Positions 14,919 through 54,121 of a stretch of 64,000 nt of DNA are shown here, piece by piece. Source of the stretch: a virus; IMG/VR virus record IMGVR_UViG_3300017934_000005, positions 32,676-96,675 of that record, one strand, 5' to 3'. A program made the position numbers and the translations under genes. Within the stretch, counting starts at the first letter, position 1. Each line of letters begins with the position of its first letter. The notes under the pieces are model-generated. The model ran no database searches and was not told the origin of the DNA. It saw nothing but the letters and a program-made list of their open reading frames with translations.

Positions 14919-14929
14919 CACTTATTTTC

Positions 14930-15203
14930 GGGAATTATAGAGTTAACTCCCCTGAAATTTCCTCAGTTGTTAAAGATCGCAGTCCAGCCTCTGTCCAATA
15001 AGATCGATCAGTTGGACAGGGTGATTGAAGAACCAGATATTGCCATTCTCCTTCCTCAAAATCTAACACTTCCATGATTCGTCCGTAAAAACCAAGATCA
15101 TCGATGAACACAACTTGGTTCTTCTTAAACTTTGGTTTCGGCTGTTTTATTTTTGGCATTGCAATCCCTTTCTTTTCTTGTGGGAGTCATCTATATAATT
15201 CCC
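14930..15203. mobile_element. Non-autonomous IS1595-family cassette (MITE/MIC 1), 274 bp
   Basis: 22-bp TIRs GGGAATTATAGAGTTAACTCCC (left identical to the IS at 51745; right 19/22); 8-bp direct repeat TTATTTTC at 14922-14929 and 15204-15211. Confidence 0.9.
14935..15159 (-). CDS. Cassette cargo: small KOW/SH3-like protein
   Basis: 74 aa filling the cassette; stop codon lies inside the TIR; similar to 47173..47370. Confidence 0.7.
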   Translation of the reverse strand: MPKIKQPKPKFKKNQVVFIDDLGFYGRIMEVLDFEEGEWQYLVLQSPCPTDRSYWTEAGLRSLTTEEISGELTL

Positions 15204-15225
15204 TTATTTTCAACTATTTTTGGGG

Positions 15226-15600
15226 TTACCAGAGTTTACGGAAGGCTCCACGGAGGGCGAGCCGACGCATACCGGCCTCGAAGACCTTGCTAGTCTTGCA
15301 TTTCTTGACTCGCGGGTGTTCCATATGAACCATTTCGTGGAGTAGAGTCGGGAGTGCAACGCGAAGATCGCGTTTATAACGAGCATTGATGATAATCTTG
15401 GCCTCTACATTGGCTTTTACCGTGCGGCCCTTGGGGTCCACAAGATCGAAAGTAAAAGTGCGGCCCATGATATCATGCATGAGCTTGTGGTGATTGGGAA
15501 CAAATCGAATACTATGGAGATGAAGTTTTCCTCCAAAGTATTTTCGATTGTATTTGTTGAAGTAAATCTTAAGACTTCTATCCGTGAGTGTTCGGATCAC
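15226..15600 (-). CDS. SprT-like zinc metalloprotease domain protein
   Basis: FNKYNRKYFGG...TLLHEMVH. Confidence 0.75.
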   Translation of the reverse strand: MIRTLTDRSLKIYFNKYNRKYFGGKLHLHSIRFVPNHHKLMHDIMGRTFTFDLVDPKGRTVKANVEAKIIINARYKRDLRVALPTLLHEMVHMEHPRVKKCKTSKVFEAGMRRLALRGAFRKLW

Positions 15601-15827
15601 GCCGTCCTCCTAATTATTTGCGGTAGAAGCGTACTGAAAAAAGTAGCGAAACTTTCCCACATGGAAAGGAAGCACTGGTTTCTCAAATCCATCGATGTGG
15701 AGTATGCGCCAGATCGAACGGTATCCGATCAAGACTCAGAGCAAGGATAGTTCCTGTTTAATCTGATCTAAAATCTCTTTGTCAAAATAGACCGAATCAG
15801 AACCACAAATGTAGGTTCGATAGGGTT

Positions 15828-16352
15828 TCAACTGTTGATCCTTGTGATCCATCCTGCCAAATCCTTTCGCTCCGCTGGCCTCGCGTTGGCGATCCCGATA
15901 GCATGGCTAACCAGGACAGCCTTGAACGCGGACAAGAACGTGTAGACATCGGCGTCGTTAAGAGCCGCGAGTGTATGAGGACCGAAGACGCCATCCTCGG
16001 CAAGCTTGAGTAAACCCTGAGCGTATTTGATCACGGTACCGGGTCCGAACAAGAAACCTAGATCGAAAATCTTATTGGCTTCGACCTGGTTTACAATTTG
16101 CGAATATAGCGGATGCCAATACGGAGGAACTTGCGGAGGCCGGCCATGAATATAGGCTTGGATAGCCTGGTCCTCGGTCAGGTTCTTGATATCCAGGTCG
16201 GGAAATTCATGCGCACTGATACCGAACTTCGTGCCTTTTAATTCACCGGAACCCTTGACACCACCCGTCCAGTTTCCGGGATCGTCAACGTCGTCTTGGA
16301 AACCCCCTTCATGCTGTAGGGTTATTGCTATTGCTATCTTCGGATCGGCCAT
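15828..16352 (-). CDS. Endolysin, glycosyl hydrolase family 108
   Basis: HEGG...DDPG...TKFGIS, DGVFGPHT, GWITRI. Confidence 0.9.
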   Translation of the reverse strand: MADPKIAIAITLQHEGGFQDDVDDPGNWTGGVKGSGELKGTKFGISAHEFPDLDIKNLTEDQAIQAYIHGRPPQVPPYWHPLYSQIVNQVEANKIFDLGFLFGPGTVIKYAQGLLKLAEDGVFGPHTLAALNDADVYTFLSAFKAVLVSHAIGIANARPAERKDLAGWITRINS

Positions 16353-17487
16353 ACAATCTTCGCTGAATCTCCTTCAGCGCCTCCTCGTGTGGATAGTTCT
16401 GAAAACAATAAGTTCGAAGCTCGGCCTCGGCGCGAGTTAAATTATTGACTTTACAAAATTTCTTGAGGCTGGTGCAGACATCGCAGAAATCGCTACCATC
16501 TTGATCTTCTTGGTTTGAAGGAATATAGACGCCATGAATGCATTTGCCTCCAGGTTCCGTGACGCTAAAATTGTTAAGTCCCACTGGGACGAAGTCGATG
16601 CCGGCTGCTGGTACCACCACATCTGAACGTAGACTTGGAAACATTAGAGATTAGCCTCGGGTTGGAATTTACGCCACACTTCTATTTCTGACTTCACGAA
16701 CTCGGCGATGCGTTCCCGCAACATTTCACGGATCACACGAACAACTGCTGAAACTTAGAAAAAATTTTATAGGTTCTTTCATTTTATTCACCGTGGCAGA
16801 TGCATTGACATCCTCGACGCCGGCTCTTATTTAACAAACATCCACAGGTTGGACAAACCTGATTTGCTAAGGCTACGGATGTGCTCGACTTCTGCACTGG
16901 TTTCTCTCGGAAAACGTAAGGACACTCACACTCGTCCAGTGGCTTTTCACACTGAGAGCAAAGCTGTTCAAAGTCGTGTAATCTCATTTTTTGGGATAAA
17001 TCCCCCCATTTTGGTATAATCAACGTTCGGGTGAGTACCCTTAGATGCAACCATAGCATCAATGAAAAGATTTAACTCATCACCGTCAGCTTGGAAAGTT
17101 ACAACTCGGTCAAGTTCAGGGAAAGCTTCTCCAATGTGCCACTGATACCAATAGTCGTGTCCGGGCATGGACCTACTCTTCATTTTTATTGCAAGCATCT
17201 ATAAGCTCCTGTCGTTTCACTCGGGCTCGAACCCGGTGACCGTGAATGTCCTTGGGATAAGCTAGATAAAAAACCGAAGCATAGACCCTTCGACCTTTCT
17301 CGTCTAGTAAAGGCATCGTGGTGCCAGATACAAACAGGGGTTTGACATCAGACCATTTTACAACCTGACGTTCATTCGGAAAATTAAAACTAGAGTTTCG
17401 TAAGTTTCGTAGGTTGTAAAAGCTTTCATCGCGTTTGTATTTATTCGTGAAAGATATGATTTCAAATCCTTCCATTAGCCCTCCCTA

Positions 17488-18090
17488 TCATTCACCTTTT
17501 CCTTCCGCATCTTTCTCGAAAGTCTTCTTGAACAGAGTTTTCGTAGCTTGGTGATAAACTACAATTCCTTCGGGCTGCATAAACCCTGGAGCAGTCACAC
17601 TCCCTCCCAGGCGTAATCCATTCATCGCGGCTTCAATAGCCGAGGTTTCGAATAAACCTTCATAAAGAATGGGCACGACTCCACAGTAGGCTGGTCGTTG
17701 GTCTCGACCATCCCGCCAGCGATTCACGTTGAAGAGACTGAATCTCTTTTCGCTGAGACCATACCGACGCTGAATTCCGAGACCCCACCACTCCCCGAAA
17801 TGATGCCCAGGTCCGAGTTGGAGAAGTTCGTCTCGATGTTCGTGAGCCCACTTGGAAAAACCATAGTTGTCATCGGAAGGAGTAATCCAGCGGGTCCGTG
17901 AGCCTGTGAGAAAGAGACCTGCATCCCCGTTTTCCTCGCTGCCAATATAGATGCTCGCATTGGTTCCATCGATCTTCTTCGTGATCGTACAGCCGCGACT
18001 TAGCCTCCCGATCTTCGGCATTGGCTTAAACTCCGGTAGTGGCGGAGTACCAGAATTACACTCTGGAGTACCACAAAAATATGTCGTCAT
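17488..18090 (-). CDS. ATP-dependent RNA ligase (Rnl2-like adenylation domain)
   Basis: KIDGTN (motif I), GSR, FGEWWG, FSLFN, PEGIVV, terminal KK. Confidence 0.85.
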   Translation of the reverse strand: MTTYFCGTPECNSGTPPLPEFKPMPKIGRLSRGCTITKKIDGTNASIYIGSEENGDAGLFLTGSRTRWITPSDDNYGFSKWAHEHRDELLQLGPGHHFGEWWGLGIQRRYGLSEKRFSLFNVNRWRDGRDQRPAYCGVVPILYEGLFETSAIEAAMNGLRLGGSVTAPGFMQPEGIVVYHQATKTLFKKTFEKDAEGKGE

Positions 18091-18091
18091 G

Positions 18092-18817
18092 TTAGTCTAA
18101 GCTCCCGTCTGCAGTTCCTAGCTGCTTGTAAGACTCGATTCCCAACGCTTTCGGACAACGACAATTTGGCCCACAAATGTGATTTAACAACCGGAGCCGA
18201 CGACGTTCAGCTTTTTCGACTTCTAAAGCAAGTTCTTCTTGGAACGCAAGTCTCGCCGCGACTGGACCGCGTGCCTGGTACTTATCTGGATCGGCAATGA
18301 ACTCCTCCAATTCGACCGGCTTGTAATCGGTGTACTCCACAGCAAACAAACGTTGCCACGGATTATAAAGCTTGCCGGTTCGAGTAAACCGCTCGGTTTC
18401 TGGTTCGTTCTTATGGAAACCGTGCCAGATGTTGTGAAGGTGACCGTGAATATTCAGATCACATCCGCCTGGTAGTGACTTCGCCGGCTTGTGCGTGAAC
18501 CAAATGTGCCGGAAGATCATGGCATCGCAAGCGAAGTCAAATCCGTTCTGCATCCACCAGGTACAGTTATGGTGCCAATCATGGTTGCCACGAATCAACA
18601 TCTTCCGGCCTGGAAGCGAAGGATAGATCGCCTTCCATCCCGCTGGCGGGCCAATAAAAACGTCGCCGGCACAGATAACTAAGTCTTGAGGCTGAACCAC
18701 GGTCTGCCAATTGTGAACGATCAGGTCCGTAAAATTCCGGGGCCGATCACAATAGGTCTCGATCTTGCTGTGATTCAGGTGTGGATCGCTAATTATCCAA
18801 GTTTTCGGTGCGCTCAT
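18092..18817 (-). CDS. Calcineurin-like metallophosphoesterase
   Basis: SDPHLNH, GD, RGNHD, THKP, HGHLH. Confidence 0.9.
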   Translation of the reverse strand: MSAPKTWIISDPHLNHSKIETYCDRPRNFTDLIVHNWQTVVQPQDLVICAGDVFIGPPAGWKAIYPSLPGRKMLIRGNHDWHHNCTWWMQNGFDFACDAMIFRHIWFTHKPAKSLPGGCDLNIHGHLHNIWHGFHKNEPETERFTRTGKLYNPWQRLFAVEYTDYKPVELEEFIADPDKYQARGPVAARLAFQEELALEVEKAERRRLRLLNHICGPNCRCPKALGIESYKQLGTADGSLD

Positions 18818-19321
18818 TAGTATCCTATCGGTGACCGGTCTCCATACTCCAAATTCTCGCTTAGGTATCCTCTCCAGACCGTAAGTTTGTCGCCGGGTTG
18901 TGGGGTTGCAGATGCCAGAAACCAGGTCTTAGCAGCTTCCACGACATCTTTCTGAGACAAAAATCGCGTGGTCTCATAACCCCAATCTGAGTTGAAGTAA
19001 GTAAGTTCAACGAAATCTGATTGACCGGGACCCACGCGCTCAGGAGGAATTTTAATCGTAGCGTAGTAATGTTCGGCAATATAAATGCCAACATAGGTTG
19101 TGATGCGAAGTTGAAATTTGCTCATGCATTTCGCTTCTTCAATGTAACTTGAACGATTGAGTGCCAGGGAAATCCTGCTTTGTCTTCTTCGTGCCAATAC
19201 ATGCCCTGTGACTGAACGTCCCGGAGCCAATCCATCACGATAGTTGCATCTGGTCGAGTATCGTGTTCACCGATTTCAACTTCAAAATTGTAAGCGCCCT
19301 CTGTTTCAACGTAGAGATGTC

Positions 19322-19552
19322 TCACCAGGATATTCCCTCTCGATACCACTTCCAGAAATTACGTCCTTGGACCACAAATAAAACCGATCCTATGACAATA
19401 ATAGACCAAGTCTTGTGTTGAATCCCAACTATCGTGGTGAAAAATTCAGCCAGGAAAGCCAGGAACGGACCAAGCAATCGCTTGTTACCCATGAGCCAGA
19501 GGCCGGCAAGCAGTAAAACTGTCGCCGAAAGTTGAACGACAAAATCAATCAT
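19322..19552 (-). CDS. PnuC-like small membrane protein
   Basis: Three TM helices ending in FWKW. Confidence 0.5.
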   Translation of the reverse strand: MIDFVVQLSATVLLLAGLWLMGNKRLLGPFLAFLAEFFTTIVGIQHKTWSIIVIGSVLFVVQGRNFWKWYREGISW

Positions 19553-20474
19553 GCGCCCTTCTTCAAAACTTTGACTACATCGATAAGAATACCACCAATG
19601 ATAAGAAGTAATATGACCGTAAGAATCGGATGATTTGATGCGAAATTAAGTATAGTGCTCATGCGCCCTCCGCGACCGAATGTGTGTTGTGGTGACCGAA
19701 ATCAACCAGGTGATGTGAGTCCTCCTCCCGGGCCGGAATCTCGGCCATGACTACGCCTGGACAAAGTGGTTCAATCATTTGTTCAATGATTGTACCTGGT
19801 GTAGTTTTTTCCATTAAAGCGTTGTATGCCTGTTGCCCATAGTCAAGAGTATCTTCAAGATTTTTGATTTTTAACTCCATTTCCCTCATAGCAATATCGT
19901 CTGCTTGTTTAAGAACGCCCAATGCTTCGATTTGAGCGTCGTAGGCACCCAGAAGAACCCTGATGCGATCCGGCGTCACGTAGAGACCGGCCGCAAGATT
20001 GAGACGAAGTTGGCGAATGCTCTCCTCAGGAGTCTCGACACGGACTTCCTTGACTTCTCTGACCTGACTCGCTCTCGCTGTTTTGCTTAACTCAGCCATT
20101 GGTTCATGTTCCTTTCCAGGATTTGAATCCATTCCTCTCGAATCTCGTCTTGAATCACTGGGTCAATACCATCCCACTCATCACCTATACCACCGCGATC
20201 ACTCAGGTCCGCGATGATTTCATCCACTGCAGCTTCATATCGCTCTCTCATATCTTTGTCATGTCTTCGGTCTTGGATTTTTCCTCGGCAATCTCAAAGA
20301 CTTTGTGAGTGAATTCAGCCAGGGAGTCATCAATTTCTTCCTGATATTGTTGATAGTACACAGTCCACCAGTGTAACCAGATATTCTTCATGATTTTCTC
20401 CCAATCAGCTTGAGAGATAGTGTCAAATTCAGCCGGTTTATCCGGTACATTGATTGCAGCTTCAATCGCTATCT

Positions 20475-20815
20475 TCATTTGGGACCCCACGTGAAACAAC
20501 GTTTGTAAACTTCTCTGGCTTTTTGACTTCGGCGCTTTCCAAAATAAGGCATTAGCAGAGTTAAAACCTTCACAATGTCAGATTTTTTCTTTGTACGCCA
20601 GCGAAGTGACGGGCTGTGTTTACGATTCTTGGGTTTCCATAAACGAAGATGCCCGACTTTCACAATCCTTAAAAACCGTCTGACCACATCGCGGTCTTTC
20701 ATTCCTAATGCGAGCCCGGAGTCTTGCATTTGCCAGCTATGAAAATACAACCTTCACCCTCGAACAGGCCAGCAGCCCAAGCAATTTCTCTTGTTCTAAT
20801 CTTTGTACGGATCAT
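20475..20815 (-). pseudogene. Frameshifted LAGLIDADG homing endonuclease
   Basis: ATG at 20815 gives MIRTKIRTREIAWAAGLFEGEGCI..., which stops at ~20706. The continuation LALGMKDRDVVRRF...LMPYFGKRR is in the -1 frame. Confidence 0.75.
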
Positions 20816-23913: not shown

Positions 23914-25469
23914 TACTGCTGCTCCGTGTTCTCCCCTCCGTATTGACCAACCGACTCTTTAGGAGTGTTTATGGTTCGACGCTTGTCGTAGATATCGCTA
24001 CCTTCCGATTTCTCGATCCAGTAGCGCTTACCTCCCTCTGTAAAAGCCTTTGCATACGGCTTGTCCTCGATGAACTTGTTTTCGCCGGTTGTAATGAACC
24101 CAGTTATTTCCGAGCCGTCTGGGAAGATGAAATCCACTTTCTTGGTGTCATCGTTGTAGAGTACTTGAGCTTTGACGAGACCAGCAAAGTCTCCTTTCGG
24201 TCTATAATACTCGGTGACAGCACCCTGACTAGCATCATAACGTTGGCCGGCAATGGTATACTCTTTTTCGACGTACTCGATCTTCAAGTACTCCATGTTC
24301 TGGTGTGCGGCATCGGGATTGGCCGGATCAATGACCGGCTTCTTGAAATGGATACGCACATTGAAATTGTCGCCGCGAGTGGTCTGATACTTGAACGGCA
24401 CGATCCAGCCATTTGCGTCCGTACTCTTCTCCCACAGATCGACGGGTTGACCTACTTTAGCAATCTCAATCTTGAAGAGTTGAGTCGGAGGATATCCGAT
24501 CCGCTCCTCTTTTGGTTTTGGCTTGAAGAGAGCATCGAGTAAGGAACCCTGACGAATCACATCCTGGACCGATGTGACGCCCGAAATTTGTTCCAGGATA
24601 TCCGGGATGCCAAAACCAGGGTCTCCTTCTTTATCGTTGTCTATGAGAACCAGAGCCATGCCTCCCGAGGGAGGAAAGAAAATTTTCAGCCGTGGCTTAG
24701 ACTCAAGGGTATTGTCATGGACAACAGTTCCCTCGATGTAGTCTCCATTGTTGTTATCCGGTTTCTCCTGGTTGATGATCTTATAATTCACCAATAAGAT
24801 CGCTTGCTTCGCCGGCTTCCATACAAACTCGTTGGGATCGTCCATGTGAAGCGGATCGACTTCTTTGCGATCATAGGTACGATTCACGCTGATTTGAGCC
24901 GTCTCAATGATTTTTAGAGTCCCGTCCTTCTTTGCACCCTCGATCTGCTCACTGGTGAACGGAAACGCTTCGGTTACGTCTTGCTCCAAGAAAATCTTTC
25001 GTGGATTGTAACCCCCGACAAGCTCGGCCTCGGGACCGTAACTCGGCACCTGGCCCATCTGTTGTTTAAACTGGGCATCAAGTTCAGCGGCTCGGATACG
25101 AGCGTAAGTAGCTTCGGTAACTTCCTCTTCGTGTTCCAGGTCCGAGCGGAGATTGAAAGTCTCGATATACTTACGATTGTCTTCAGACTTCGGATCAAGA
25201 ATTTGTTTCAGGTCTTCAAGGACCTTGTCCAATTGTTCCCGAACCTTGGCAACCGGGACGCGGCCATACACGATCACGAATTGACTCTCGCCTTTTTGCT
25301 GAGCCCAGAAGATACGGTCTGCGTAGGCAAAAGCCGCAAGTTTCTGCTTCTCAGTCCAGCCTTTGGCATTGCCCTCGTCCCAAAAACGTTGTCTGTATGG
25401 AGGCGCACAGCCGGCCATTGCAAAAAGTGAAGCTAAGACTGCGAATTTTACGATCTTGTTCAATTTCAT
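23913..25469 (-). CDS. Large lipoprotein, unknown function
   Basis: MKLNKIVK + hydrophobic stretch + AMAG-C lipobox; 518 aa. Confidence 0.7.
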   Translation of the reverse strand: MKLNKIVKFAVLASLFAMAGCAPPYRQRFWDEGNAKGWTEKQKLAAFAYADRIFWAQQKGESQFVIVYGRVPVAKVREQLDKVLEDLKQILDPKSEDNRKYIETFNLRSDLEHEEEVTEATYARIRAAELDAQFKQQMGQVPSYGPEAELVGGYNPRKIFLEQDVTEAFPFTSEQIEGAKKDGTLKIIETAQISVNRTYDRKEVDPLHMDDPNEFVWKPAKQAILLVNYKIINQEKPDNNNGDYIEGTVVHDNTLESKPRLKIFFPPSGGMALVLIDNDKEGDPGFGIPDILEQISGVTSVQDVIRQGSLLDALFKPKPKEERIGYPPTQLFKIEIAKVGQPVDLWEKSTDANGWIVPFKYQTTRGDNFNVRIHFKKPVIDPANPDAAHQNMEYLKIEYVEKEYTIAGQRYDASQGAVTEYYRPKGDFAGLVKAQVLYNDDTKKVDFIFPDGSEITGFITTGENKFIEDKPYAKAFTEGGKRYWIEKSEGSDIYDKRRTINTPKESVGQYGGENTEQQ

Positions 25470-26935
25470 TGGACACTAACTCCTGTTATAATTTTGTTCA
25501 GATACTCCAACGTTTGAGCTGGCTCCATCTTGCGAAGATTTTGTAATTCTTTTGGATGTGCTCGAAAATAAGACTCCAGAGTTGCTCGATCCTTAGCACT
25601 AAACATTCGCTGGTACATCTCGATCAGATAATGCGGGACTCGGTCAGATTCCATACTTACGTTATCTTGACCGCCGAGGCCGGCCCGGAAAGCTTCTTTA
25701 GCGATATCCACAATTTCATCATGATGTGATTCCAACCACTCCATCGTTTTCTGGCGACCGCCCAGGAGTGTAGGATCGTAATGAAGAGCCATGACCATGC
25801 GGAAAACCGAATTATTGTCTCCGCGAATGTTGTTGACAGCACCCCACCAGAGTGGATCGGAATAAAATTCCGGGATTACCACGCTCTGGAAAAAGTCTAG
25901 GTTCTCTTTCTGAACCAGTTGCAACTGATCGTAGTAATATTTGTATCTGGCTTCATCATACACGATGTTGCCGGCTAGATCGAATTTGAACACGTCTTTT
26001 TCCATCTGTTTGAAATCAAAACTGAAGTAGATTTCATCGATTTCTCGCAGATCGCTGAAGTAACCGTGTTCAGCCAAATCCATGCGATTCTCAGCCCAGA
26101 GACCTTCCGGGATTGAGGCTTCCATCTCAACATCAAAAGCCTCCTCCATCGGGAATTTCTGAAAGTTGATATTGCCGTGAACCATTTCGTGAGCCATCAC
26201 CTTAGGCTTGCCGGTGATGTAATCCAACATGCGGGCTTCAGGATTGTAATAGATCAAACCCGTGTTGATCCAGGTCACGCCCAGGATTCCGTTTGGAATC
26301 TCGGTAGGATAGCCGAGATGCAGTTCTCGCGGCACAAAATCGGATACCCTGGATGGCTTCGGAAGATGATGAAGCTCACGGAAGGTAATGTTGTAACCGG
26401 GAACTTTTTCGTCAAGTTGTGCGCTTAAGTCCTTGACACTGATGCCCAGCTTTTCGGCCCGAGCCTTAATTGCAAGATCGTAAATGACCTTGTAATAATC
26501 AAAATCCAGTTTGGCTGCTTCCTGAACGACCGATTTCAGATCATCAACATCTGCGAAAGCTTGTTCTTTGGTGATGATCTTCTGACCACAAAGGCTTGTG
26601 ACCTGGACATTGCCATCCGGTCGAATGACATAGTTATCCAGGACAATCTTCATACTGGCTGGATTCGCGGTCACGGAATCCGTCGAGACCACATCGGTCT
26701 GGACTGAAATGCTTTGACTCTGAGAAAAATGTAGTCGTTGCGTGTCCGTGGAAGTCTGGTTACATTGCCAATTCCCCATTAGGGTACGCATGACTTCTTC
26801 GCGTTGATGCAGAGCATCCGTGGTCTGAGCGATGCCGGGCGGAAAATACGAGGGAAGCGACTTCGCTGTCTGGGCTGAAGCCATGACTGAGGACAAAAGC
26901 AAGAACACAACTGCGAATAAATTTCGAACCTTCAT
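25466..26935 (-). CDS. Secreted HExxH zincin-like protein
   Basis: Sec signal (…MASA-Q), AHEMVH plus downstream EMEA. Confidence 0.6.
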   Translation of the reverse strand: MKVRNLFAVVFLLLSSVMASAQTAKSLPSYFPPGIAQTTDALHQREEVMRTLMGNWQCNQTSTDTQRLHFSQSQSISVQTDVVSTDSVTANPASMKIVLDNYVIRPDGNVQVTSLCGQKIITKEQAFADVDDLKSVVQEAAKLDFDYYKVIYDLAIKARAEKLGISVKDLSAQLDEKVPGYNITFRELHHLPKPSRVSDFVPRELHLGYPTEIPNGILGVTWINTGLIYYNPEARMLDYITGKPKVMAHEMVHGNINFQKFPMEEAFDVEMEASIPEGLWAENRMDLAEHGYFSDLREIDEIYFSFDFKQMEKDVFKFDLAGNIVYDEARYKYYYDQLQLVQKENLDFFQSVVIPEFYSDPLWWGAVNNIRGDNNSVFRMVMALHYDPTLLGGRQKTMEWLESHHDEIVDIAKEAFRAGLGGQDNVSMESDRVPHYLIEMYQRMFSAKDRATLESYFRAHPKELQNLRKMEPAQTLEYLNKIITGVSVQ

Positions 26936-27002: not shown

Positions 27003-27031
27003 AAAATACCAGAATCACTCCGCATTGTCAA
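27003..27031 (-). promoter_or_regulatory. Sigma70-type promoter
   Basis: TTGACA-17 bp-TATTTT, TGG before -10. Confidence 0.75.
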
Positions 27032-27042
27032 GAGAATTTTTC

Positions 27043-27268
27043 GGGAATTATCCCTTTAACTCTCTCAAAGTTTGATATTATTGATCCATTCGGCGTCATA
27101 AAACATTGATGACGCGGGCGTTATTTTAGACCGTTTTTCAACATACTTTTCATGCAGCCAAAACATAAGCCAAATTAAAGGCACTCCTATATCCCAAATT
27201 AACAAACACATTCGAGTTATTGTCATTTTCTTTCTCCTTCAGTTAAGGTAGTTAAAGGGATAATTCCC
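27043..27268. mobile_element. Non-autonomous IS1595-family cassette (MITE/MIC 2), 226 bp
   Basis: Perfect 19-bp TIR GGGAATTATCCCTTTAACT; 7-bp direct repeat ATTTTTC at 27036-27042 and 27269-27275. Confidence 0.85.
27065..27226 (-). CDS. Cassette cargo: 53-aa membrane peptide (not in ORF track)
   Basis: GAAGGAG RBS; MTITRMCLLIWDIGVPLIWLMFWLHEKYVEKRSK... Confidence 0.6.
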   Translation of the reverse strand: MTITRMCLLIWDIGVPLIWLMFWLHEKYVEKRSKITPASSMFYDAEWINNIKL

Positions 27269-27398
27269 ATTTTTCAATCCAAATCGTGTTGTTTGGAAAG
27301 ACAGGTTGCACACCATTCTTCGCACATAGCAAACCGATGACGCCAGTACATAATTCTTGCACGAAGCAGAGACCAGACTGCGGATAAGATTTGCTTGA

Positions 27399-47186: not shown

Positions 47187-47370
47187 TCTCCTCTTTAGTC
47201 AAGGGACGAATCTCTTGAATGTAGTAAAACAGGCGGGGATCATTGCTGTCGTCTTCAGACAGATAAACTTTATCGCCTACGATTCGAACGATTTTCTGGT
47301 ACTGAGATTGAGATTCCATAATCTCTTCAGAATTAATGTCCAAAGCAACTACTTGCCCTTTCTTGAACAC
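47173..47370 (-). CDS. Small KOW/SH3-like protein (paralog of cassette cargo)
   Basis: FKKGQVV...IRPLTKEEI. Confidence 0.55.
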   Translation of the reverse strand: MFKKGQVVALDINSEEIMESQSQYQKIVRIVGDKVYLSEDDSNDPRLFYYIQEIRPLTKEEIEGD

Positions 47371-48060: not shown

Positions 48061-48327
48061 TCATTTTCTATCTCGTATCCCGCTATAGATCATTCCACGA
48101 ATGAAGATCGCTGCTAACTTACGGAGGAAAGGAAGCGCGGCTTCGTTTCCTTTGTTATCAGACCAGGCGTCCTCCAAGCGTCGTAGGTAAACTCGGCCAA
48201 GTGTTGCGAACCCTTCGGGACCTTTCGCTTCACTCTCCTCCGTGCGTCGAGGCAAGTTGTTTTGATATTCTATTTCTGACCAAACTGCCTCGACAGCTAT
48301 ATCAAAAACAGCTCTGCTAACAATCAT
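48061..48327 (-). CDS. All-alpha NTP-PPase-like hypothetical protein
   Basis: AVWSEIEYQ...LRKLAAI. Confidence 0.4.
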   Translation of the reverse strand: MIVSRAVFDIAVEAVWSEIEYQNNLPRRTEESEAKGPEGFATLGRVYLRRLEDAWSDNKGNEAALPFLRKLAAIFIRGMIYSGIRDRK

Positions 48328-49070: not shown

Positions 49071-49098
49071 AGAACTCCAGAGAAACTTTGTTGGATGT

Positions 49099-49785
49099 TT
49101 AAAACGACAGGTTGTGAATTCTGCCGAGAGTGAACCCTGTCACAACTCCGGCAATGAACCACTTGAATTTGCTCTTGCGAGCCTGAGCTTTCACCGTAAC
49201 TATTTCTTGATTTGCTGCATCCAACTTAGCCTGGATCGCATTCACATCACTCTTGTGAGATTGTTTCTCAGAATCAAGAGCTTTTGCATCGTTAGCGATT
49301 ATTACGGTATCGTTGGCAATGACGGTCTGATCGGCAGCTAGTTCCTGCCTGAGGATAGCCGGCTCTTCAAGTGCTTGAGCCACGGAAACGGCTTCGGATT
49401 GGTCCATCTGATAAGCACTTCCGACCACAGTAACGGAACCGCCAGGGGCCAGAGTTTGAATACGCGAGGCAAGATCATTCGGAGCAAGGGTAGCATCTTT
49501 TTTCTTATTTGCTTGAAGCTGCGAAATAAGGCTGGAGACTAAAACTGTTTGCTGTTGATTCGCGGTCTGCAACTGAGTATTTTGTATAGCCAGTTGAGCC
49601 ATTTGATCCGTTATCTGTTTCTGAAACTGGGCGTTTGAAGAATCTTTTTGATCCGCCAGAGTCTTTAAGTCTTCATACCTCTGCTCTGCTCGGCTGGCTA
49701 TCCGAGACTCAATCGCGTAAGTGAGGCCCAAGGCGAGAAAAATAGTTGCAATGTAGAGCGTGATATGATGGCGATCCAAAGTCAT
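49099..49785 (-). CDS. Membrane-anchored coiled-coil protein (spanin-like)
   Basis: N-terminal TM, long Gln/Ala coiled coil, C-terminal hydrophobic segment. Confidence 0.5.
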   Translation of the reverse strand: MTLDRHHITLYIATIFLALGLTYAIESRIASRAEQRYEDLKTLADQKDSSNAQFQKQITDQMAQLAIQNTQLQTANQQQTVLVSSLISQLQANKKKDATLAPNDLASRIQTLAPGGSVTVVGSAYQMDQSEAVSVAQALEEPAILRQELAADQTVIANDTVIIANDAKALDSEKQSHKSDVNAIQAKLDAANQEIVTVKAQARKSKFKWFIAGVVTGFTLGRIHNLSF

Positions 49786-50183
49786 TGTTCTTCTCTCTTA
49801 ATATAGGTTCTAATAGGAACGCGATTTTTCTGCGCTTTTAATAACTTCTTTCGGGCCTTCCGCTGCACCTTGGTTCCTACTCGGTGTGGTAGACCATAGT
49901 GAGGATGTCCCAGGGCTTGAGTCGCGGGAGGATTCTTAGCATATCTGAGGATATTCTCCAAACGTTCTATTGTGACCCAGTCCGGGATAAGTTTATTACA
50001 ACGGAAACACAGTAGACCACGGACGAGACCTGTCTTATGGTCATGATCAGTGAGAGTACAATGATCAGGAAGGGGTTCTCCACAACCGGGGCAGAGACCA
50101 TTCTGAAATCTGTAGATTAGTATCCACTCGTCTTGCGTCAGGAGGAACGTGAGACGTAGATAATTCGCGTTCGGAACCTTCAT
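49782..50183 (-). CDS. Endonuclease VII-like protein
   Basis: FQNGLCPGC...DHDHKTGLVRGLLCFRCN. Confidence 0.85.
   Translation of the reverse strand: MKVPNANYLRLTFLLTQDEWILIYRFQNGLCPGCGEPLPDHCTLTDHDHKTGLVRGLLCFRCNKLIPDWVTIERLENILRYAKNPPATQALGHPHYGLPHRVGTKVQRKARKKLLKAQKNRVPIRTYIKREEQ
49799..49825 (-). promoter_or_regulatory. Phage-specific promoter-like motif, copy 2
   Basis: ATCGCGTTCCTATTAGAACCTATATTA, 13 nt before spanin-like ATG. Confidence 0.65.
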
Positions 50184-50184
50184 C

Positions 50185-50211
50185 TAATCTAGGTTCCGAT
50201 AGGAACGCGAT
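50185..50211 (-). promoter_or_regulatory. Phage-specific promoter-like motif, copy 3
   Basis: ATCGCGTTCCTATCGGAACCTAGATTA, 1 nt before EndoVII ATG. Confidence 0.65.
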
Positions 50212-50373
50212 TTATTTCATGTAGATTTTACGCAGTGGGTAGAACTTACTCATCCCATGGTTCTAGCTTGGGAACAAAGACCGGAATCGGCATATTTCTG
50301 AGCCGGCGAAACCAAGATTTCGCCAGGTGATAGATTGGAGGCCGAGGCCGGTAATACCAACGAAAGAGACGAA

Positions 50374-51060
50374 TCATTCCTCGTCTTTCTCCTTGTCGTA
50401 AACCGTACCGTGATGATCAGGATCGTTATCAGGCACAAAGACCGGTGTGATGTCATGCTTCTCCGCGTCTTGGACGGCCTCAGAACCATGTTCGCTCTCA
50501 TTGAATATCTTCTCGATGCGCTCGGGAATCCAAGCATAGAAGATGCCAGGAAACGAAGCGATGAGTCCACCTTTGAGTTTGGGATTGAGTTCTACATCCT
50601 CCGGCATCACGGGGCGCTCGATGGTCTTGCGATGGGCCAGGAACACTGGGGTCCCGATCTTAAAGCCTCGCGGGATAGCCTTGATGCGACGGCTGAGGCC
50701 CATTGCCAAGCCTTCCCGGAGAAACTTGGCCGGTGACGGGTAAAAACTACCCCCAATCCAGAGCAAGCCAGCCTTTTCAAACTTGCCGGGAGTAGTACAG
50801 AGCCAACAACCTTCTTTACACTCACAAAGTTTGCTTTCTGTAAACATGCCGTCAAAATGTGACTTTAAATGCAGACCTTGGAACAAGAGACCGGGCTTGA
50901 TCCAGGTCCAACCCAGTGCCGGCTTAATGCCTGCGCTGCAGCAAGGACAGATTTCAAGCTCAAAGGGGAGACGGTCGCATGGCACTCCGATACCGCCGCC
51001 AACAAGATACGTTCCCCCAGCTTTCCGATATCCACAACCACGTCTGGCTTCGACGGCCAC
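50374..51060 (-). CDS. Cys-rich conserved hypothetical phage protein
   Basis: RRGCGYRK.GG.YL, CPCC; GGAGG RBS. Confidence 0.55.
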   Translation of the reverse strand: MAVEARRGCGYRKAGGTYLVGGGIGVPCDRLPFELEICPCCSAGIKPALGWTWIKPGLLFQGLHLKSHFDGMFTESKLCECKEGCWLCTTPGKFEKAGLLWIGGSFYPSPAKFLREGLAMGLSRRIKAIPRGFKIGTPVFLAHRKTIERPVMPEDVELNPKLKGGLIASFPGIFYAWIPERIEKIFNESEHGSEAVQDAEKHDITPVFVPDNDPDHHGTVYDKEKDEE

Positions 51061-51069
51061 GATTCCTCC

Positions 51070-51312
51070 TTAATAGAGACGAATCGAATCAACTTGGTCC
51101 TTAGCATCTTTGAGACTCGCACCGGTCATCTGACGGAACAGTTTAATGGCTTCGATCTTCCGGCCTTGCTGGACGAGACTGCGGATGTTATCAAATGTTG
51201 CGGGTGGTTCTGTCGTGGTCTGAGATGCCGCTCTCATAGTTGTAGAATAAACATCGACAAACTTCTCTACAGCCGCGACGAATCGATCTTCGGTGAACTG
51301 ATTTCGAAACAA
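51070..51312 (-). CDS. Ribosomal protein bL12 C-terminal-domain-like protein
   Basis: GRKIEAIKLFRQMTGASLKDAKDQVD. Confidence 0.7.
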   Translation of the reverse strand: MFRNQFTEDRFVAAVEKFVDVYSTTMRAASQTTTEPPATFDNIRSLVQQGRKIEAIKLFRQMTGASLKDAKDQVDSIRLY

Positions 51313-51703
51313 GGTAGCCTCCTATTTTGGTATGTACATCTCTCGTGCCGTGACAACTCGATCCCGGCCGATCACTTTCCGAAACCTCACTTTCCGAACA
51401 ATGCAATCCTTGAAAAAGGCCGGGTTACGACGAAATTCATCGCAAGCCAGAGTCTTTGTAGACCAAGCGTGGAATTCCCCAGATGTATCGGGGTCCTCCA
51501 CAGGAGACTCGGCCCTGTGCCATTTGCCGATAGCGTAGCCGTCTTTCCCTCGCCCATGCCAGTCATACGGCGAAGTTAATAAAAGATCGACTCCAAATCC
51601 GGGCTGGAGGCGGAAGATTTTCCAAACCGCGATCACTGTGGTTCGCTTTCCCTCATATCCTTTGGCAACTTCACACATGATCTATTTTCTCCTCAACGAG
51701 GAT

Positions 51704-51733
51704 ATGGTGACATGCCACATGTGTGGCTGTCAA
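51704..51733 (-). promoter_or_regulatory. Sigma70-type promoter (weak -10)
   Basis: TTGACA-18 bp-CACCAT with TG extension; upstream of GAGGAG RBS and ORF 51678. Confidence 0.5.
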
Positions 51734-51785
51734 GCATTATTTTCGGGAATTATAGAGTTAACTCCCTCACTTTTTGTGGCGTCTC

Positions 51786-51923
51786 TCACCCGGATTCCCG
51801 TAGCCTCTTCAATTCTTTGCGTTTATTTTGTCGTACTCTACGCTTCGCCGCCTTCGTTTTCGGCTTCGGGTGATAAGACAAAACTACATCTGTAATTCGG
51901 TCGAGTTCGGGCGGTACTTTCAC
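51786..51923 (-). CDS. 45-aa basic peptide translationally coupled to transposase (not in ORF track)
   Basis: GTG overlaps the transposase TGA; MKVPPELDRITDVVLSYHPKPKTKAAKRR... Confidence 0.55.
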   Translation of the reverse strand: MKVPPELDRITDVVLSYHPKPKTKAAKRRVRQNKRKELKRLRESG

Positions 51924-52837
51924 TTCGTCAACTCCGCATACGTGATTCTCTTTCCTACCACAGCGTCAACAAAACTGTTAATACGCTCCGTGGTGTGCCG
52001 CTGCACTCGGCCAGCATTCAAGCGAAAGGTAAACTCGTCTACGTATCGGCCCATATGCTTGCGACTGGCATGATGATAGACGCCATGCATTCCCCGTTTC
52101 ATCACGGCCCAAACGGACTCGATGGAATTCGTGTGAGCCGTACCACGAACATATTCGCCAGCGACGTGCTTGACTGCTTCATGGCCGTATCCTTCACCAC
52201 GGATGCGAGCATAGCCGGGATTCTCGTCTGTGATGATTACGGAACCAGGGAGCACATTATCCTTGATGGCTGTACGAAGGGCTAAGCCGCCAATGCTATC
52301 CGTAACCTTGGCGACGGTGTTACCACCACGTTCTCGGATACCGATAACGGCGACCTTCTCAGACCGTTCCCTCGGTTTGTTGATTCTGTCGTACATGTGC
52401 CGATTGCTCTCTTCCCCGCCAAAGAACGTCTCATCGGCTTCCACGGTGCCCTTGAGCATCTCAATTTTCGTGCCGCAAGCCTCTCGCAGCCTGTGTAGGA
52501 CGAACCAAGCCGATTTCTGCGTTATGCCTATCTCTTTCCCTAACTGGAGCGAAGAGATGCCCTTGCGTGCTGTAACAAGCAAGTACATGGCATATAGCCA
52601 CTTGTGCAAAGGAACATGGCTCCGCTCGAAGATAGTTCCTGTTCTCACTGTAAAATCCAGTTTGCAGGCGTTGCAACGATAGAAACCATCTTTGCGCTGA
52701 GTGATTCTCTCGCCCGATTTACACTCTGGACAAATAGAACCGTTAGGCCAAAGGCGTCCTTCCAAGTATTTGCGGGCTGTTTCTTCATCTGGAAATAACT
52801 CGAACAGTTTGAAAGTGCTGATTGTACTTCGGCTCAT
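51920..52837 (-). CDS. IS1595-family DDE transposase
   Basis: Zn ribbon CPEC...CNAC, TGTIFE, KGISS HTH, VEADETFFGG, ITDE, HTNSIESVW, YVDEFTFR. Confidence 0.95.
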   Translation of the reverse strand: MSRSTISTFKLFELFPDEETARKYLEGRLWPNGSICPECKSGERITQRKDGFYRCNACKLDFTVRTGTIFERSHVPLHKWLYAMYLLVTARKGISSLQLGKEIGITQKSAWFVLHRLREACGTKIEMLKGTVEADETFFGGEESNRHMYDRINKPRERSEKVAVIGIRERGGNTVAKVTDSIGGLALRTAIKDNVLPGSVIITDENPGYARIRGEGYGHEAVKHVAGEYVRGTAHTNSIESVWAVMKRGMHGVYHHASRKHMGRYVDEFTFRLNAGRVQRHTTERINSFVDAVVGKRITYAELTK

Positions 52838-53648
52838 TGATAGGCTCCTTAACTGAGCCTAGTGTAGATAATTCCCTTGCGGGAGTCAAGTATAATTCTT
52901 GTTCTGTTTCGCAATAAGCCTCTATGAACGCTTGCGCTTGCGGGGCACATAAGGCGTTTCCGAAAGCCTTAGTTTCTTCCACACGGTCGGTAGACCCATC
53001 AATAAACACAGGAACAGGGGATTGAGTTTCCCGCTCCTTCCAAGTTGACGTTGCATGAACTCGTTCAAATTCACCCCACGAGGATGTAATTTCCGTCGCT
53101 CTAGGTTTTGTAGGCTCATACCGCTGCGGTAGTCCCTCGCCATAGGCGTTGGAAGCGCAGAAATAGAGCCGTTGTCGGATGTGCGGAGCACCGAAGCCCG
53201 CAGCGCAGGTATCACACGCCCCGATGGTGTAACCCTTTTCTTCCAAATCATTTGATACAATGTCGAACCACTCAAGACCGCCCTTCGATGAAGTTTGTTC
53301 ACCAAAGATAGTTGAAGGTGCTTTTGCTGCGATAAGTCGGAACCACTCCGGCCATAAATGGCGGCTATCCGAGAAACCTTTTCGGTGTCCCGCCAAACTG
53401 AAAGGCTGGCAGGGGCAACTCCCAGTCCAGACTGGTCTATCATCAGGCCATCCGGCTTGGCGCAAGGCATAACTCCAGACCCCAATTCCTGCAAAGAAGT
53501 GACATTGTGTGTAGCCATATAACTCCTGTGGTTTGACATCTACGATAGAGCGGTCATCAACTTCGCCTGTGGCTATGAGTCCTTCGGCAATCAAGTCTCT
53601 TAACCGAGATGCCGCGAATTTATTATTTTCGTTGTAATAAGCCGCCAT
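52785..53648 (-). CDS. C5-cytosine DNA methyltransferase (alpha chain)
   Basis: FFAGIG (I), GSCPCQPFS (IV), GEQ (VI), PHIRQR (VIII), FGNA (X). Confidence 0.88.
   Translation of the reverse strand: MAAYYNENNKFAASRLRDLIAEGLIATGEVDDRSIVDVKPQELYGYTQCHFFAGIGVWSYALRQAGWPDDRPVWTGSCPCQPFSLAGHRKGFSDSRHLWPEWFRLIAAKAPSTIFGEQTSSKGGLEWFDIVSNDLEEKGYTIGACDTCAAGFGAPHIRQRLYFCASNAYGEGLPQRYEPTKPRATEITSSWGEFERVHATSTWKERETQSPVPVFIDGSTDRVEETKAFGNALCAPQAQAFIEAYCETEQELYLTPARELSTLGSVKEPINEPKYNQHFQTVRVISR
52861..52889 (-). promoter_or_regulatory. Transposase promoter overlapped by TIR-like boxes
   Basis: TTGACT-17 bp-TACACT, embedded in GAATTATACTTGACTCCC and GGGAATTAT. Confidence 0.65.
52922..53539 (-). CDS. Nested alternative-frame ORF, putative MTase beta chain
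   Basis: 205 aa entirely within the MTase gene; LPTPMARD and KLNPLFLCLLMGLP (motif IX-like). Confidence 0.65.
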   Translation of the reverse strand: MSNHRSYMATHNVTSLQELGSGVMPCAKPDGLMIDQSGLGVAPASLSVWRDTEKVSRIAAIYGRSGSDLSQQKHLQLSLVNKLHRRAVLSGSTLYQMIWKKRVTPSGRVIPALRASVLRTSDNGSISALPTPMARDYRSGMSLQNLERRKLHPRGVNLNEFMQRQLGRSGKLNPLFLCLLMGLPTVWKKLRLSETPYVPRKRKRS

Positions 53649-53666
53649 CGAAGTCTCCTAAAATTT

Positions 53667-53718
53667 GGTAGTCTCTCCTACCCGCCAAGCCTAGTTTTTC
53701 GTATCCGGCTTTCGATAC
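53667..53718 (-). ncRNA. Pseudoknot-type structured RNA motif, copy B (5' of MTase, inside IS)
   Basis: GTATC-GAAAGCCG-GATAC...ACTAGGCTTGGC-G-GGTAG-GAGAGA-CTACC. Confidence 0.65.
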
Positions 53719-53758
53719 CCCGAGTTCGTTCGCCCTAGATTCGCTTAGGGAGTTAACT

Positions 53759-54121
53759 CTATAATTCCCTTATTTTCAATACAACTCCCAGGACTGCGTC
53801 AACTAACGGTCCTGACTCCTTGCTAAGACCACGAACTGCACCGGTCTTCGGGTTGAGTTGAATCTCATGGGGAATGTGTTGGCGACGAACTACACGCCGG
53901 AGTTCACCGTGGATTTGTCTGATGCTCATCGCATCTAATTTCTGGTTACGGATGTACAAATCGGGTCGGCGCTCCGCAGCCGTGAGTGACTTCTTGGGCG
54001 AAAGTGGCAGCGTCTCCTCCTCAATTGGTTTCGCAAGCTCGGGATGAGTCTTCAGAACCGCTGCAGCCTGCTGAACTGCAGAACCTGCACTGACAACCGC
54101 AATGCTCTTAACTTGTCCCAT
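53759..54121 (-). CDS. Hypothetical protein whose stop codon is supplied by the IS TIR
   Basis: GGAGG RBS; ends ...LKIREL-TAG inside the TIR. Confidence 0.55.
   Translation of the reverse strand: MGQVKSIAVVSAGSAVQQAAAVLKTHPELAKPIEEETLPLSPKKSLTAAERRPDLYIRNQKLDAMSIRQIHGELRRVVRRQHIPHEIQLNPKTGAVRGLSKESGPLVDAVLGVVLKIREL

What the first reader, a model, noticed from the sequence alone, without database searches (positions are those of the whole stretch)
14922..53777. Promoter-anchored transposition: three IS1595-type elements each inserted exactly 11 bp upstream of a TTGACA -35 box
Seen: an autonomous IS (51745-53769) and two non-autonomous cassettes (14930-15203, 27043-27268) share GGGAATTAT-N4-TTAACT ends and have target duplications TTATTTTC, ATTTTTC and TTATTTTC. 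In all three, exactly 11 nt separate the element end from a perfect TTGACA (14913-18, 27026-31, 51728-33). The reconstructed empty sites on the - strand are TTGAAAATAAGTGTTGACA, TTGAAAAATTCTCTTGACA and TTGAAAATAATGCTTGACA. The promoter cores stay intact and the cargo genes are co-oriented with the phage operons. Three other TTGACA promoters (6002, 58422, 62890) lack TTGAAAA in this register and are unoccupied. Known: IS1595 members make ~8-bp TSDs at AT-rich sites and form transporter ISs and MITEs. Inference: this transposase targets the UP-element/-35 region, either by reading the sequence or by tethering to promoter-bound RNA polymerase. That would be a safe-harbour gene-delivery system for phage operon boundaries. 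I do not know of this being described.
Basis: partly seen in the sequence, partly recalled or inferred. Interest (0 to 1): 0.9.

Follow-up and report, generated by a model that had tools for sequence, protein, structure and literature searches.

The report
Phage transposons docked beside promoters
A jumping gene of a known family (IS1595) and two transposase-less single-gene cassettes sit in this wetland phage with one tip exactly 11 bases upstream of a TTGACA promoter box. The same geometry recurs in dozens of independent insertions made by one branch of this transposase family, so the landing site is chosen, not accidental.

Summary
The window holds three IS1595-family elements: one autonomous, carrying a C5 DNA methylase, and two single-ORF cassettes. 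Each has clean terminal repeats and a 7-8 bp target duplication, and each has TTGACA exactly 11 nt outside the same end.

The pattern generalises. Among 520 distinct family ends from phage, MAG and metagenome contigs, exact TTGACA occurs 26 times at offset 11. It occurs 0-2 times at every other offset, apart from an explained artefact at offsets 28-29.

On a tree of 97 transposases the habit is confined to one clade: 17 of 18 inside it against 1 of 79 outside. That clade includes chromosomal copies in Acidobacteriota, where both orientations occur. So the aiming is a heritable property of a transposase lineage. It is not explained by A-tract preference or by selection alone.

How the hexamer is sensed is unresolved. 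I put direct DNA reading at about 0.45 and docking on promoter-bound RNA polymerase at about 0.38.

The unrelated TnGBS/ISLre2/ISKra4 transposases insert 15-17 bp upstream of -35 boxes (PMC3942029). I found no description of this for IS1595 elements or for phage genomes.

This scan already noted the same 11-bp rule on other phage DNA (e1-5648804, e1-5993436, e1-5985770).

Verdict: a new variant of a known kind.

The parts
14930..15203 (-). Cassette 1: a 274-bp non-autonomous IS1595-type element. IRs lie at 14930-14951 and 15182-15203.
   Evidence: The left IR is 22/22 identical to that of the autonomous element.
14935..15159 (-). Cargo ORF of cassette 1, 74 aa, no family match. It starts 45 nt from the promoter-distal tip.
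   Evidence: No Pfam or PHROG hit. Architecture.
14922..14929 (.). TSD copy TTATTTTC. The second copy is at 15204-15211.
14890..14918 (-). Promoter 1: TTGACA (14913-18), 17 nt, then TG-extended TATTTT (14890-95). It drives the 82-aa ORF at 14624-14872.
   Evidence: 10/12, TG present.
27043..27268 (-). Cassette 2: a 226-bp non-autonomous element of the IR variant GGGAATTATCCCTTTAACT.
27065..27226 (-). Cargo ORF of cassette 2, 53 aa, hydrophobic, no family match.
27036..27042 (.). 7-bp TSD copy ATTTTTC. The second copy is at 27269-27275.
27003..27031 (-). Promoter 2: TTGACA (27026-31), 17 nt, then TG-extended TATTTT (27003-08). It lies upstream of the 489-aa ORF at 25466-26935.
51745..53769 (-). 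Autonomous 2025-bp IS1595-family 'transporter' IS with perfect 22-bp IRs.
51920..52837 (-). Transposase, 305 aa: Zn ribbon, HTH and an RNase-H-like DDE core. D135 and D204 are invariant; E240 is nearly invariant and followed by K247.
   Evidence: Pfam; invariant columns; model, pLDDT 80.5; integrase/ISCth4-like fold.
51786..51923 (-). 45-aa basic ORF. Its GTG start overlaps the transposase stop codon.
   Evidence: Homologous coupled ORFs occur in at least 101 of 160 related loci.
52785..53648 (-). Passenger gene: C5 cytosine DNA methyltransferase.
   Evidence: Pfam DNA_methylase 5e-15; phrog_363 1e-61.
52861..52900 (-). Internal transposase promoter TTGACT-17-TACACT (52861-52889), overlapping a degenerate old left IR (52881-52900).
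   Evidence: Relatives have the same arrangement.
51737..51744 (.). TSD copy TTATTTTC. The second copy is at 53770-53777.
51728..51733 (-). TTGACA hexamer 3. It is followed by the palindrome GCCACACATGTGGC, has no canonical -10, and lies 49 nt upstream of the ATG of the 118-aa ORF.
5979..6007 (-). Unoccupied promoter of the same architecture (AAAAAAAG TTC TTGACA-17-TAATTT).

Best explanation
SHOWN. The three elements are insertions of one lineage of IS1595-family DDE transposons. In this lineage, target capture is anchored on a -35-type hexamer. The 8-bp staggered cut is placed so that the duplicated octamer ends 3 bp upstream of (C)TTGACA and the element tip lies 11 bp upstream of it.

The octamer is usually the A-rich stretch of the promoter's upstream half, with consensus NAAAATAR, followed by Y-S-C and then TTGACA. 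The register follows the hexamer even where the octamer is not A-rich.

In chromosomes either end of the element can face the hexamer. In phages only co-oriented copies are seen.

INFERRED FROM THE ANATOMY. A promoterless gene flanked by the two IRs lands as the last gene of the upstream transcription unit. The next promoter's -35 and -10 stay intact. This works as a low-damage slot for accessory genes such as methylases and small unknown ORFs.

INFERRED, probability about 0.45. The transpososome itself contacts the hexamer DNA on one side of the target. This adds to the family-wide preference for AT-rich octamers.

INFERRED. The uniform orientation in phages is produced by selection, not by the chemistry.
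For: Anchoring is real:
- 131 fully delimited elements gave 15 exact and 22 one-mismatch TTGACA at offset 11, against 0-1 exact (and about 1 on average with one mismatch) at other offsets.
- 520 distinct family ends gave 26 exact and 42 one-mismatch.
- Six whole phage genomes show 14-15 of about 16 elements anchored.

It is lineage-encoded:
- One clade of 18 transposases (support 91) holds 13 strict cases plus L124, L206, L251 and L128. Outside it the count is 1 of 79.
- An independent promoter score gives 11/18 inside against 0/80 outside.
- The clade includes copies in large Acidobacteriota contigs (L233 in a 305-kb contig, L236 in a 5.4-Mb chromosome). Sister clades in similar hosts are not anchored.

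It is not A-tract reading:
- Octamers CTTTATTT, CAAAGTCC, GAAGTTTG, AATCAACA and CAACTAAG still sit in exact register.
- Good A-tract promoters remain empty.
- The 7-bp TSD of cassette 2 keeps the 11-nt distance on the promoter side.

For direct reading:
- The distance is exact in over 90% of cases.
- The hexamer is far better conserved than the -10. Only 21/42 sites have a 4/6 or better match and 16/42 have TAnnnT. Window site 3 has no -10 at all.
- The cut lies inside the stretch that promoter-bound alpha-CTD would occupy (established promoter geometry; inference).

For orientation arising by selection:
- 10/10 cassettes and 9/9 autonomous phage copies are co-oriented, even those with 22/22 symmetric IRs.
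- MAG and metagenome copies show both orientations.
Against: - No candidate reader exists. The anchored clade has no extra domain and only three signature residues: M148, R151 and G183. The first two lie in a low-confidence loop after D135.
- The Zn ribbon and HTH are near-invariant across anchored and non-anchored relatives.
- The module that reads the IR inner box tolerates TTAACT, TTGACT and TTCACT, whereas the target has G at position 3 in 40/40. IR mimicry is therefore unlikely.
- Three in-clade sites have poor hexamers but a good -10 in exact register: L124 TTGCAG-17-TATAAT, L206 TGGTGA-17-TATACT, L251 TTGTAA-17-TAATTT. This looks like recognition of a promoter, not of a word.
- The conserved target features (A-tract, C at -1, TTG conserved more strongly than ACA) are those of the host's own promoters. 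The family's internal transposase promoters share them.
- No empty allele and no transposition event was observed directly.
Confidence: 0.45

Rival explanations
1. Docking on promoter-bound RNA polymerase. The transpososome binds sigma region 4 (or alpha-CTD) sitting on the -35/UP half of a promoter. Specificity for TTGACA is therefore borrowed from sigma, as was proposed but never shown for TnGBS, by analogy with Ty3.
For: - The clade has no new DNA-binding module and few signature residues.
- The order of conservation in the hexamer and the flanking A-tract and C match promoter consensus.
- There are cases with a weak -35 and a strong -10 in register.
- The same idea was put forward for TnGBS/ISLre2 (PMC3942029).
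- Both orientations occur in chromosomes, as expected if either protomer of a symmetric complex can dock.
Against: - About half of the anchored hexamers lack a recognisable -10, including window site 3.
- The spacing is exact, whereas TnGBS varies over 15-17 bp.
- The cuts fall at about -47 and -39, where alpha-CTD and sigma4 would crowd the DNA (inference).
Confidence: 0.38
2. No aiming at the hexamer. The transposase only prefers A/T-rich octamers. In 45-50% GC phage genomes these occur mainly as UP-element A-tracts at a fixed register from -35, and selection removes every other insertion.
For: - The whole family makes AT-rich TSDs. Out-of-clade relatives land in terminator T-tracts (L164, L166, L177, L196).
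- Many unoccupied promoters carry the same A-rich octamer register.
Against: - Non-A-rich octamers are still in exact register.
- Sister clades with the same AT preference in similar hosts score 0/80.
- The free space between the upstream stop codon and -35 is about 22 bp at site 1, so viability alone cannot fix a single position.
Confidence: 0.06
3. The cassettes spread between promoters by homologous or microhomology recombination at the conserved promoter-upstream sequence, as PeSL-type regulatory cassettes do in T4-like phages. They do not spread by transposition.
For: Elements 1 and 3 share an identical TSD plus IR (30 nt) on the left and an identical IR plus TTATTTTCAA on the right.
Against: - TSDs differ from site to site and always match across each element.
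- The spacer triplets differ.
- A cognate DDE transposase with intact catalytic residues is present.
Confidence: 0.03

Closest known systems
TnGBS ICEs and ISLre2 / ISKra4-group insertion sequences (prokaryotic Mutator-like DDE transposases; Brochet 2009; Guerillot 2013, 2014, PMC3942029)
   Same: - DDE transposition at a fixed short distance upstream of the -35 box of sigma70/sigmaA-type promoters, leaving the promoter intact.
- The habit is restricted to particular transposase lineages.
- Both orientations occur when the ends are symmetric.
- A mechanism was proposed but not shown.
   Different: - A different transposase family: here Pfam DDE_Tnp_IS1595 with a Zn ribbon, related to IS1/Merlin, not to IS256/Mutator.
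- 11 bp exactly, rather than 15-17 bp.
- An 8-bp TSD that overlaps the UP-proximal A-tract.
- The elements live in phage genomes and have spawned transposase-less single-gene cassettes.
IS1595-family 'transporter IS' with passenger genes (ISNwi1+, ISPna2+ and ISNha5 groups; Siguier, Gagnevin and Chandler 2009; cited from my own knowledge and the earlier scan notes, paper not read here)
   Same: - Zn-ribbon plus DDE(K) transposase.
- Short terminal IRs.
- 8-bp AT-rich target duplications.
- Passenger genes inside the IRs.
- MITE-like derivatives.
   Different: - I know of no report of promoter-anchored insertion for this family, and three literature searches found none.
- This clade is phage-borne.
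- Its non-autonomous derivatives each carry one ORF.
Ty3 and Ty1 retrotransposons, tethered to Pol III transcription factors (PMC5911963)
   Same: Integration within a few bases of a transcription-initiation landmark. It is seen as a safe-harbour strategy.
   Different: These are eukaryotic retroelements whose tether has been demonstrated experimentally. Here the sensor is unknown.
Integron gene cassettes and phage 'morons' (own knowledge)
   Same: Small, mostly promoterless single-gene units added at defined slots in a co-oriented array.
   Different: These elements move by DDE transposition with IRs and TSDs. There is no attC/attI recombination and no integrase, and each promoter is a potential slot.

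Membership tests
IS1595 family | Transposase with a DDE_Tnp_IS1595 (ISXO2-like) catalytic domain | tested here: met
   PF12762, 3.6e-39, residues 127-274, full profile.
IS1595 family | N-terminal zinc ribbon | tested here: met
   PF12760, 4.6e-10. C36, C39 and C55 are invariant and C58 nearly invariant.
IS1595 family | Catalytic D, D, E with a basic residue about 7 positions after E | tested here: met
   D135 and D204 are invariant; E240 is at least 90% conserved; K247 is read from the sequence. The fold is RNase-H-like.
IS1595 family | Terminal inverted repeats and an ~8-bp AT-rich target duplication | tested here: met
   22-bp IRs with TSDs of 8, 7 and 8 bp in the window. 131 delimited relatives have 8-bp TSDs.
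IS1595 family, named subgroup (ISNwi1-like?) | Similarity to ISfinder reference elements | not testable with these tools
   No ISfinder library is available here. The assignment in earlier scan notes was not checked.
TnGBS / ISLre2 / ISKra4 promoter-targeting elements | Mutator-like (p-MULT) transposase | tested here: not met
   The only Pfam hits are the IS1595 domains. Structural similarity to the IS256-family ISCth4 is only the generic DDE fold, TM about 0.3.
TnGBS / ISLre2 / ISKra4 promoter-targeting elements | Insertion 15-17 bp upstream of the -35 box | tested here: not met
   The distance here is 11 bp, with a single sharp peak. The behaviour is analogous but this is not membership.
MITE (non-autonomous derivative) | No transposase, with the same IRs as an autonomous partner | tested here: met
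   The left IR of cassette 1 is 22/22 identical to the autonomous element. Cassette 2 is an IR variant that also occurs in other phages.
MITE (non-autonomous derivative) | Non-coding | tested here: not met
   10/10 cassettes hold one ORF starting about 45 nt from the distal tip. They are better described as mobile single-gene cassettes.

The most novel reading that the evidence does not exclude
A bacterial/phage DDE transposase lineage docks on the sigma-bound upstream half of promoters. Every strong promoter of a phage thereby becomes an attachment site for promoterless gene cassettes. This would be a transposon-based counterpart of the integron that shuffles accessory genes (methylases, small unknown ORFs, captured phage genes) among phages of Acidobacteriota.
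Probability: 0.3. Interest if true: 0.8.

Novelty: new variant of a known kind. Interest (0 to 1): 0.62.

Why it matters
Promoter-anchored DDE transposition was known from one transposase superfamily, and its mechanism has been open since 2009. A second, unrelated family that does the same thing gives an independent system in which to ask how a transposase finds a promoter. This family adds single-base precision, closely related sister clades that lack the habit, and only a handful of clade-specific residues.

For phage biology, it shows how small accessory genes can be added at operon ends without breaking a compact genome. It also shows that such genes travel as IR-flanked cassettes between phages.

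If the rule holds on naked DNA, the transposase would be a compact enzyme that inserts at a predictable distance from a 6-7 bp word.

Tried and rejected
- Empty alleles. A search for close relatives through the 489-aa flanking protein found none. In five related ~100-kb phages the flanking genes are only 27-57% identical and not syntenic, so no orthologous empty site could be read.
- Public runs. Five wetland metagenome runs hold the phage. No RNA holder is listed.
- Laid contigs. No clean empty allele appeared. Minor alleles skip or replace 14901-15226 (two runs) and 27052-27268 (one run). One contig carries a W3-type IR at the cassette-2 junction. This suggests site polymorphism but rests on contigs only, with short sides.
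- IR-box mimicry, where the target hexamer is read like the IR inner box. Rejected: the IR box is mostly TTAACT and varies at position 3, while the target has invariant G. The CTCCC part of the IR is also absent from targets.
- The 45-aa ORF as aiming factor. Rejected.
- The HTH region against Pfam at E up to 10 gave only a generic HTH_11 at 0.14 and no sigma-r4 similarity.
- PDB by sequence gave nothing.
- Open frames spanning the reconstructed empty sites were inconclusive.
- Complex prediction of the transposase with region 4 of an Acidobacteriota RpoD gave no verdict (score 0.13, below the mark). It is not evidence either way.
- The bump of TTGACA at offsets 28-29 is an artefact. Near-palindromic left IRs were read inwards, reaching the elements' own internal promoter.

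Full report
**What is in the window.**
Three elements share termini of the form GGGAATTAT-N4-TTAACT.
- Element 1 spans 14930-15203 (274 bp) and element 2 spans 27043-27268 (226 bp). Each holds one small ORF on the - strand and no transposase.
- Element 3 spans 51745-53769 (2025 bp) and has perfect 22-bp IRs. It carries a 305-aa protein that matches Pfam DDE_Tnp_IS1595 (3.6e-39) and Zn_ribbon_IS1595.
- Element 3 also carries a 45-aa basic ORF whose GTG start overlaps the transposase stop codon, and upstream a C5 DNA methyltransferase (Pfam; phrog_363 at 1e-61).
- An internal TTGACT-17-TACACT promoter sits over a decayed older left IR just upstream of the transposase.
- The target duplications are TTATTTTC, ATTTTTC and TTATTTTC.

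The record is a 96.7-kb IMG/VR virus contig, estimated 94% complete, and these are its only copies. The phage occurs in wetland metagenomes. The nearest chromosomal relatives of its transposase are in Acidobacteriota/Terriglobia MAGs, so that phylum is the likely host. The host assignment is an inference.

**The 11-nt register.**
In all three elements TTGACA on the - strand starts 11 nt outside the same tip: the 8-bp duplication plus 3 nt.
- Sites 1 and 2 are TTGACA-17-TATTTT with a TG extended -10.
- Site 3 has the hexamer, a palindrome, and then no canonical -10.
- No terminator lies between the upstream gene and the insertion point.
- At site 1 the upstream stop codon is 15 nt from the duplication. 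About 22 positions would have been equally harmless there.

**Does it generalise?**
I collected relatives in four ways: an IR pattern scan of viral contigs, and transposase homologues in viral contigs, species genomes and metagenomes.
- Among 131 non-redundant elements delimited by both IRs and a matching 8-bp duplication, exact TTGACA read outward from a tip occurs 15 times at offset 11 and 0-1 times at every other offset from 0 to 49. With one mismatch the counts are 22 against about 1.
- Over 520 distinct family ends the counts are 26 exact and 42 with one mismatch.
- The only other bump, at offsets 28-29, comes from reading near-palindromic IRs inwards into the elements' own promoter.
- I read six complete or nearly complete ~100-kb phage genomes of this group in full. 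Almost every element in them is anchored, including five in one phage.

**It is a property of a transposase lineage.**
On a FastTree of 97 transposases whose elements I could delimit, anchoring falls in one clade of 18 (support 91).
- Thirteen of the 18 are strict cases.
- Three more sit in exact register with a promoter whose -35 is weak: L124 TTGCAG-17-TATAAT, L206 TGGTGA-17-TATACT and L251 TTGTAA-17-TAATTT.
- L128 is displaced by 2 nt inside a poly-A run.
- Outside the clade 1 of 79 is anchored. No label shuffle in 500 clustered as well.
- A separate promoter score (at least 9 of 12) gives 11/18 inside against 0/80 outside, and only at offset 11.
- The clade contains phage copies and copies in MAG contigs, two of them large (a 305-kb contig and a 5.4-Mb chromosome).
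- Sister clades in the same kinds of organisms make AT-rich duplications but are not anchored. Several sit in terminator T-tracts.
- Metagenome relatives at 68-85% identity add eleven further independent anchored insertions.

**What the target looks like.**
For 42 anchored sites the consensus is [A/C]AAAATA[G/A], then Y-S-C, then TTGACA.
- T1, G3 and A4 of the hexamer are invariant, C5 is 40/42 and A6 is 31/42. This set was selected for at most one mismatch, so part of the invariance is circular.
- The preceding C is present in 36/42.

The A-rich octamer is a feature of promoters in these genomes generally.
- Unoccupied promoters carry it in the same register, including an exact GAAAATAA-AGC-TTGACA in another phage.
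- The family's own internal promoters carry it too.

The octamer is not required. TSDs such as CTTTATTT, CAAAGTCC, GAAGTTTG, AATCAACA, CAACTAAG and GAAGATTG keep the register. The -10 is much less conserved than the hexamer: 21/42 sites match at 4/6 or better and 16/42 have TAnnnT.

**Orientation and cargo.**
- In phage contigs all nine autonomous copies have the transposase 3' end next to the hexamer.
- All ten cassettes carry one ORF that starts about 45 nt from the distal tip and points toward the promoter. This holds even where the two IRs are identical over 22/22 bases.
- In MAG and metagenome contigs six anchored copies face the other way.
- I therefore attribute the uniform orientation in phages to selection, not chemistry. 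This is an inference.
- Cargo includes C5 and N6-adenine methylases and unknown small proteins.
- One cassette in a related phage carries a gene whose 72%-identical homologue is an ordinary operon gene in this window at 48064-48321. So phage genes are being captured.

**How the hexamer is sensed.** I see two live models.

For direct reading by the transpososome:
- The spacing is exact.
- Half of the targets lack a -10.
- The cuts fall where promoter-bound alpha-CTD and sigma would sit.

Against direct reading, and for docking on promoter-bound RNA polymerase:
- The clade has no extra domain and only three signature residues, M148, R151 and G183. The first two lie in a low-confidence loop after catalytic D135.
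- The DNA-binding domains are nearly invariant across anchored and non-anchored relatives.
- The module that reads the IR inner box accepts TTAACT, TTGACT and TTCACT, whereas the target G is invariant.
- Three weak-hexamer sites are nevertheless promoters in register.
- Every conserved target feature is a promoter feature.

I put direct reading at about 0.45, polymerase docking at about 0.38, and other explanations in the remainder. A complex prediction with an Acidobacteriota sigma region 4 gave no verdict and counts for nothing.

**Comparison with what is known.**
The element is a member of the IS1595 family by every feature I could test. The habit has a clear precedent in an unrelated family. 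TnGBS ICEs and the ISLre2 and ISKra4 ISs (Mutator-like transposases) insert 15-17 bp upstream of sigmaA -35 boxes. Their orientation is governed by IR asymmetry, and an untested polymerase-interaction model has been proposed (PMC3942029).

Three literature searches found no such report for IS1595 elements or for phage genomes. The scan's own notes show that follow-up agents reached the same 11-bp rule on other phage genomes. One of those notes gave me the lead to the TnGBS paper, which I then read.

- Anchoring is restricted to one transposase clade that also lives in chromosomes, where both orientations occur.
- The 45-aa ORF and IR mimicry are excluded as explanations.
- The -35 is conserved far more strongly than the -10.

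**Limits.**
- Loci were found by similarity to this element, so they are a sample of relatives, not of all IS1595 elements.
- Some MAG contigs may be phage DNA.
- The tree is a FastTree.
- No transposition event or precise empty site was observed.
- The read evidence is contigs only.

Noticed in passing
window 51786-51923 (-); also L123-L285 downstream of each transposase: A 35-55 aa basic ORF (motif LDxIxDVVLAYRPKPKTKAAKRR...) starts 1 nt before the transposase stop codon in at least 101 of 160 related loci. It occurs in anchored and non-anchored clades alike. No Pfam or PHROG match; function unknown.
   Followed up: partly
L309:10770-13940 (= G003 10.7-13.9 kb): An array of cassettes. Four promoter-proximal IRs in a row are each followed by an ORF and a TTGACA promoter, but only two matching distal IRs are present. 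Flanking octamers do not match for some of them, so nested insertion or recombination between elements has occurred.
   Followed up: partly
window 48064-48321 (-): An ordinary operon gene here is 72% identical (86 aa) to the cargo of a 336-bp cassette in a related phage (G003 20560-20895). Cassettes capture phage genes.
   Followed up: partly
window 51745-51766 and all family IRs: The 22-bp IR is itself a near-palindrome of two half-sites, GGGARTYAW ... WTRAYTCCC. Together with the T-rich duplication it scores as a terminator-like hairpin on the antisense strand (53747-53770).
   Followed up: no
window 51714-51727: The perfect palindrome GCCACACATGTGGC lies directly downstream of the third TTGACA, where a spacer and -10 would be expected. 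It may be an operator.
   Followed up: no
L164, L166, L177, L196, L168, L054 (viral contigs): Out-of-clade relatives of the same IS family sit in the T-tract of intrinsic terminators. The family seems to use whichever AT-rich punctuation a GC-richer genome offers.
   Followed up: no
window 27043-27051 in run X3; window 14900-15227 in runs X1 and X3: Metagenome contigs show minor alleles at both cassette sites. One continues from the cassette-2 junction into the IR type of the autonomous element, as if the same slot were used by a different element.
   Followed up: partly
L056:4280-5177; L030:2807-3289: One 898-bp cassette ends with the last ~20 residues of a transposase, so it is a deletion derivative of an autonomous copy. 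Another carries an NPPY N6-adenine methylase split into two ORFs.
   Followed up: no
L208, L253, L146, L348-L385 (inside the left end): In a non-anchored subgroup the transposase promoter reads GAAAATAA-NNC-TTGACA-N7-GGGAATCAA..., which is the target motif of the anchored clade followed by an IR-like word. This may be a fossil of an insertion next to a promoter that later became part of the element.
   Followed up: no
window 53649-53747 (-): The methylase has an unusually long leader of about 120 nt inside the element. Another note of this scan (e1-6033714) calls it a structured RNA motif. I did not examine it.
   Followed up: no
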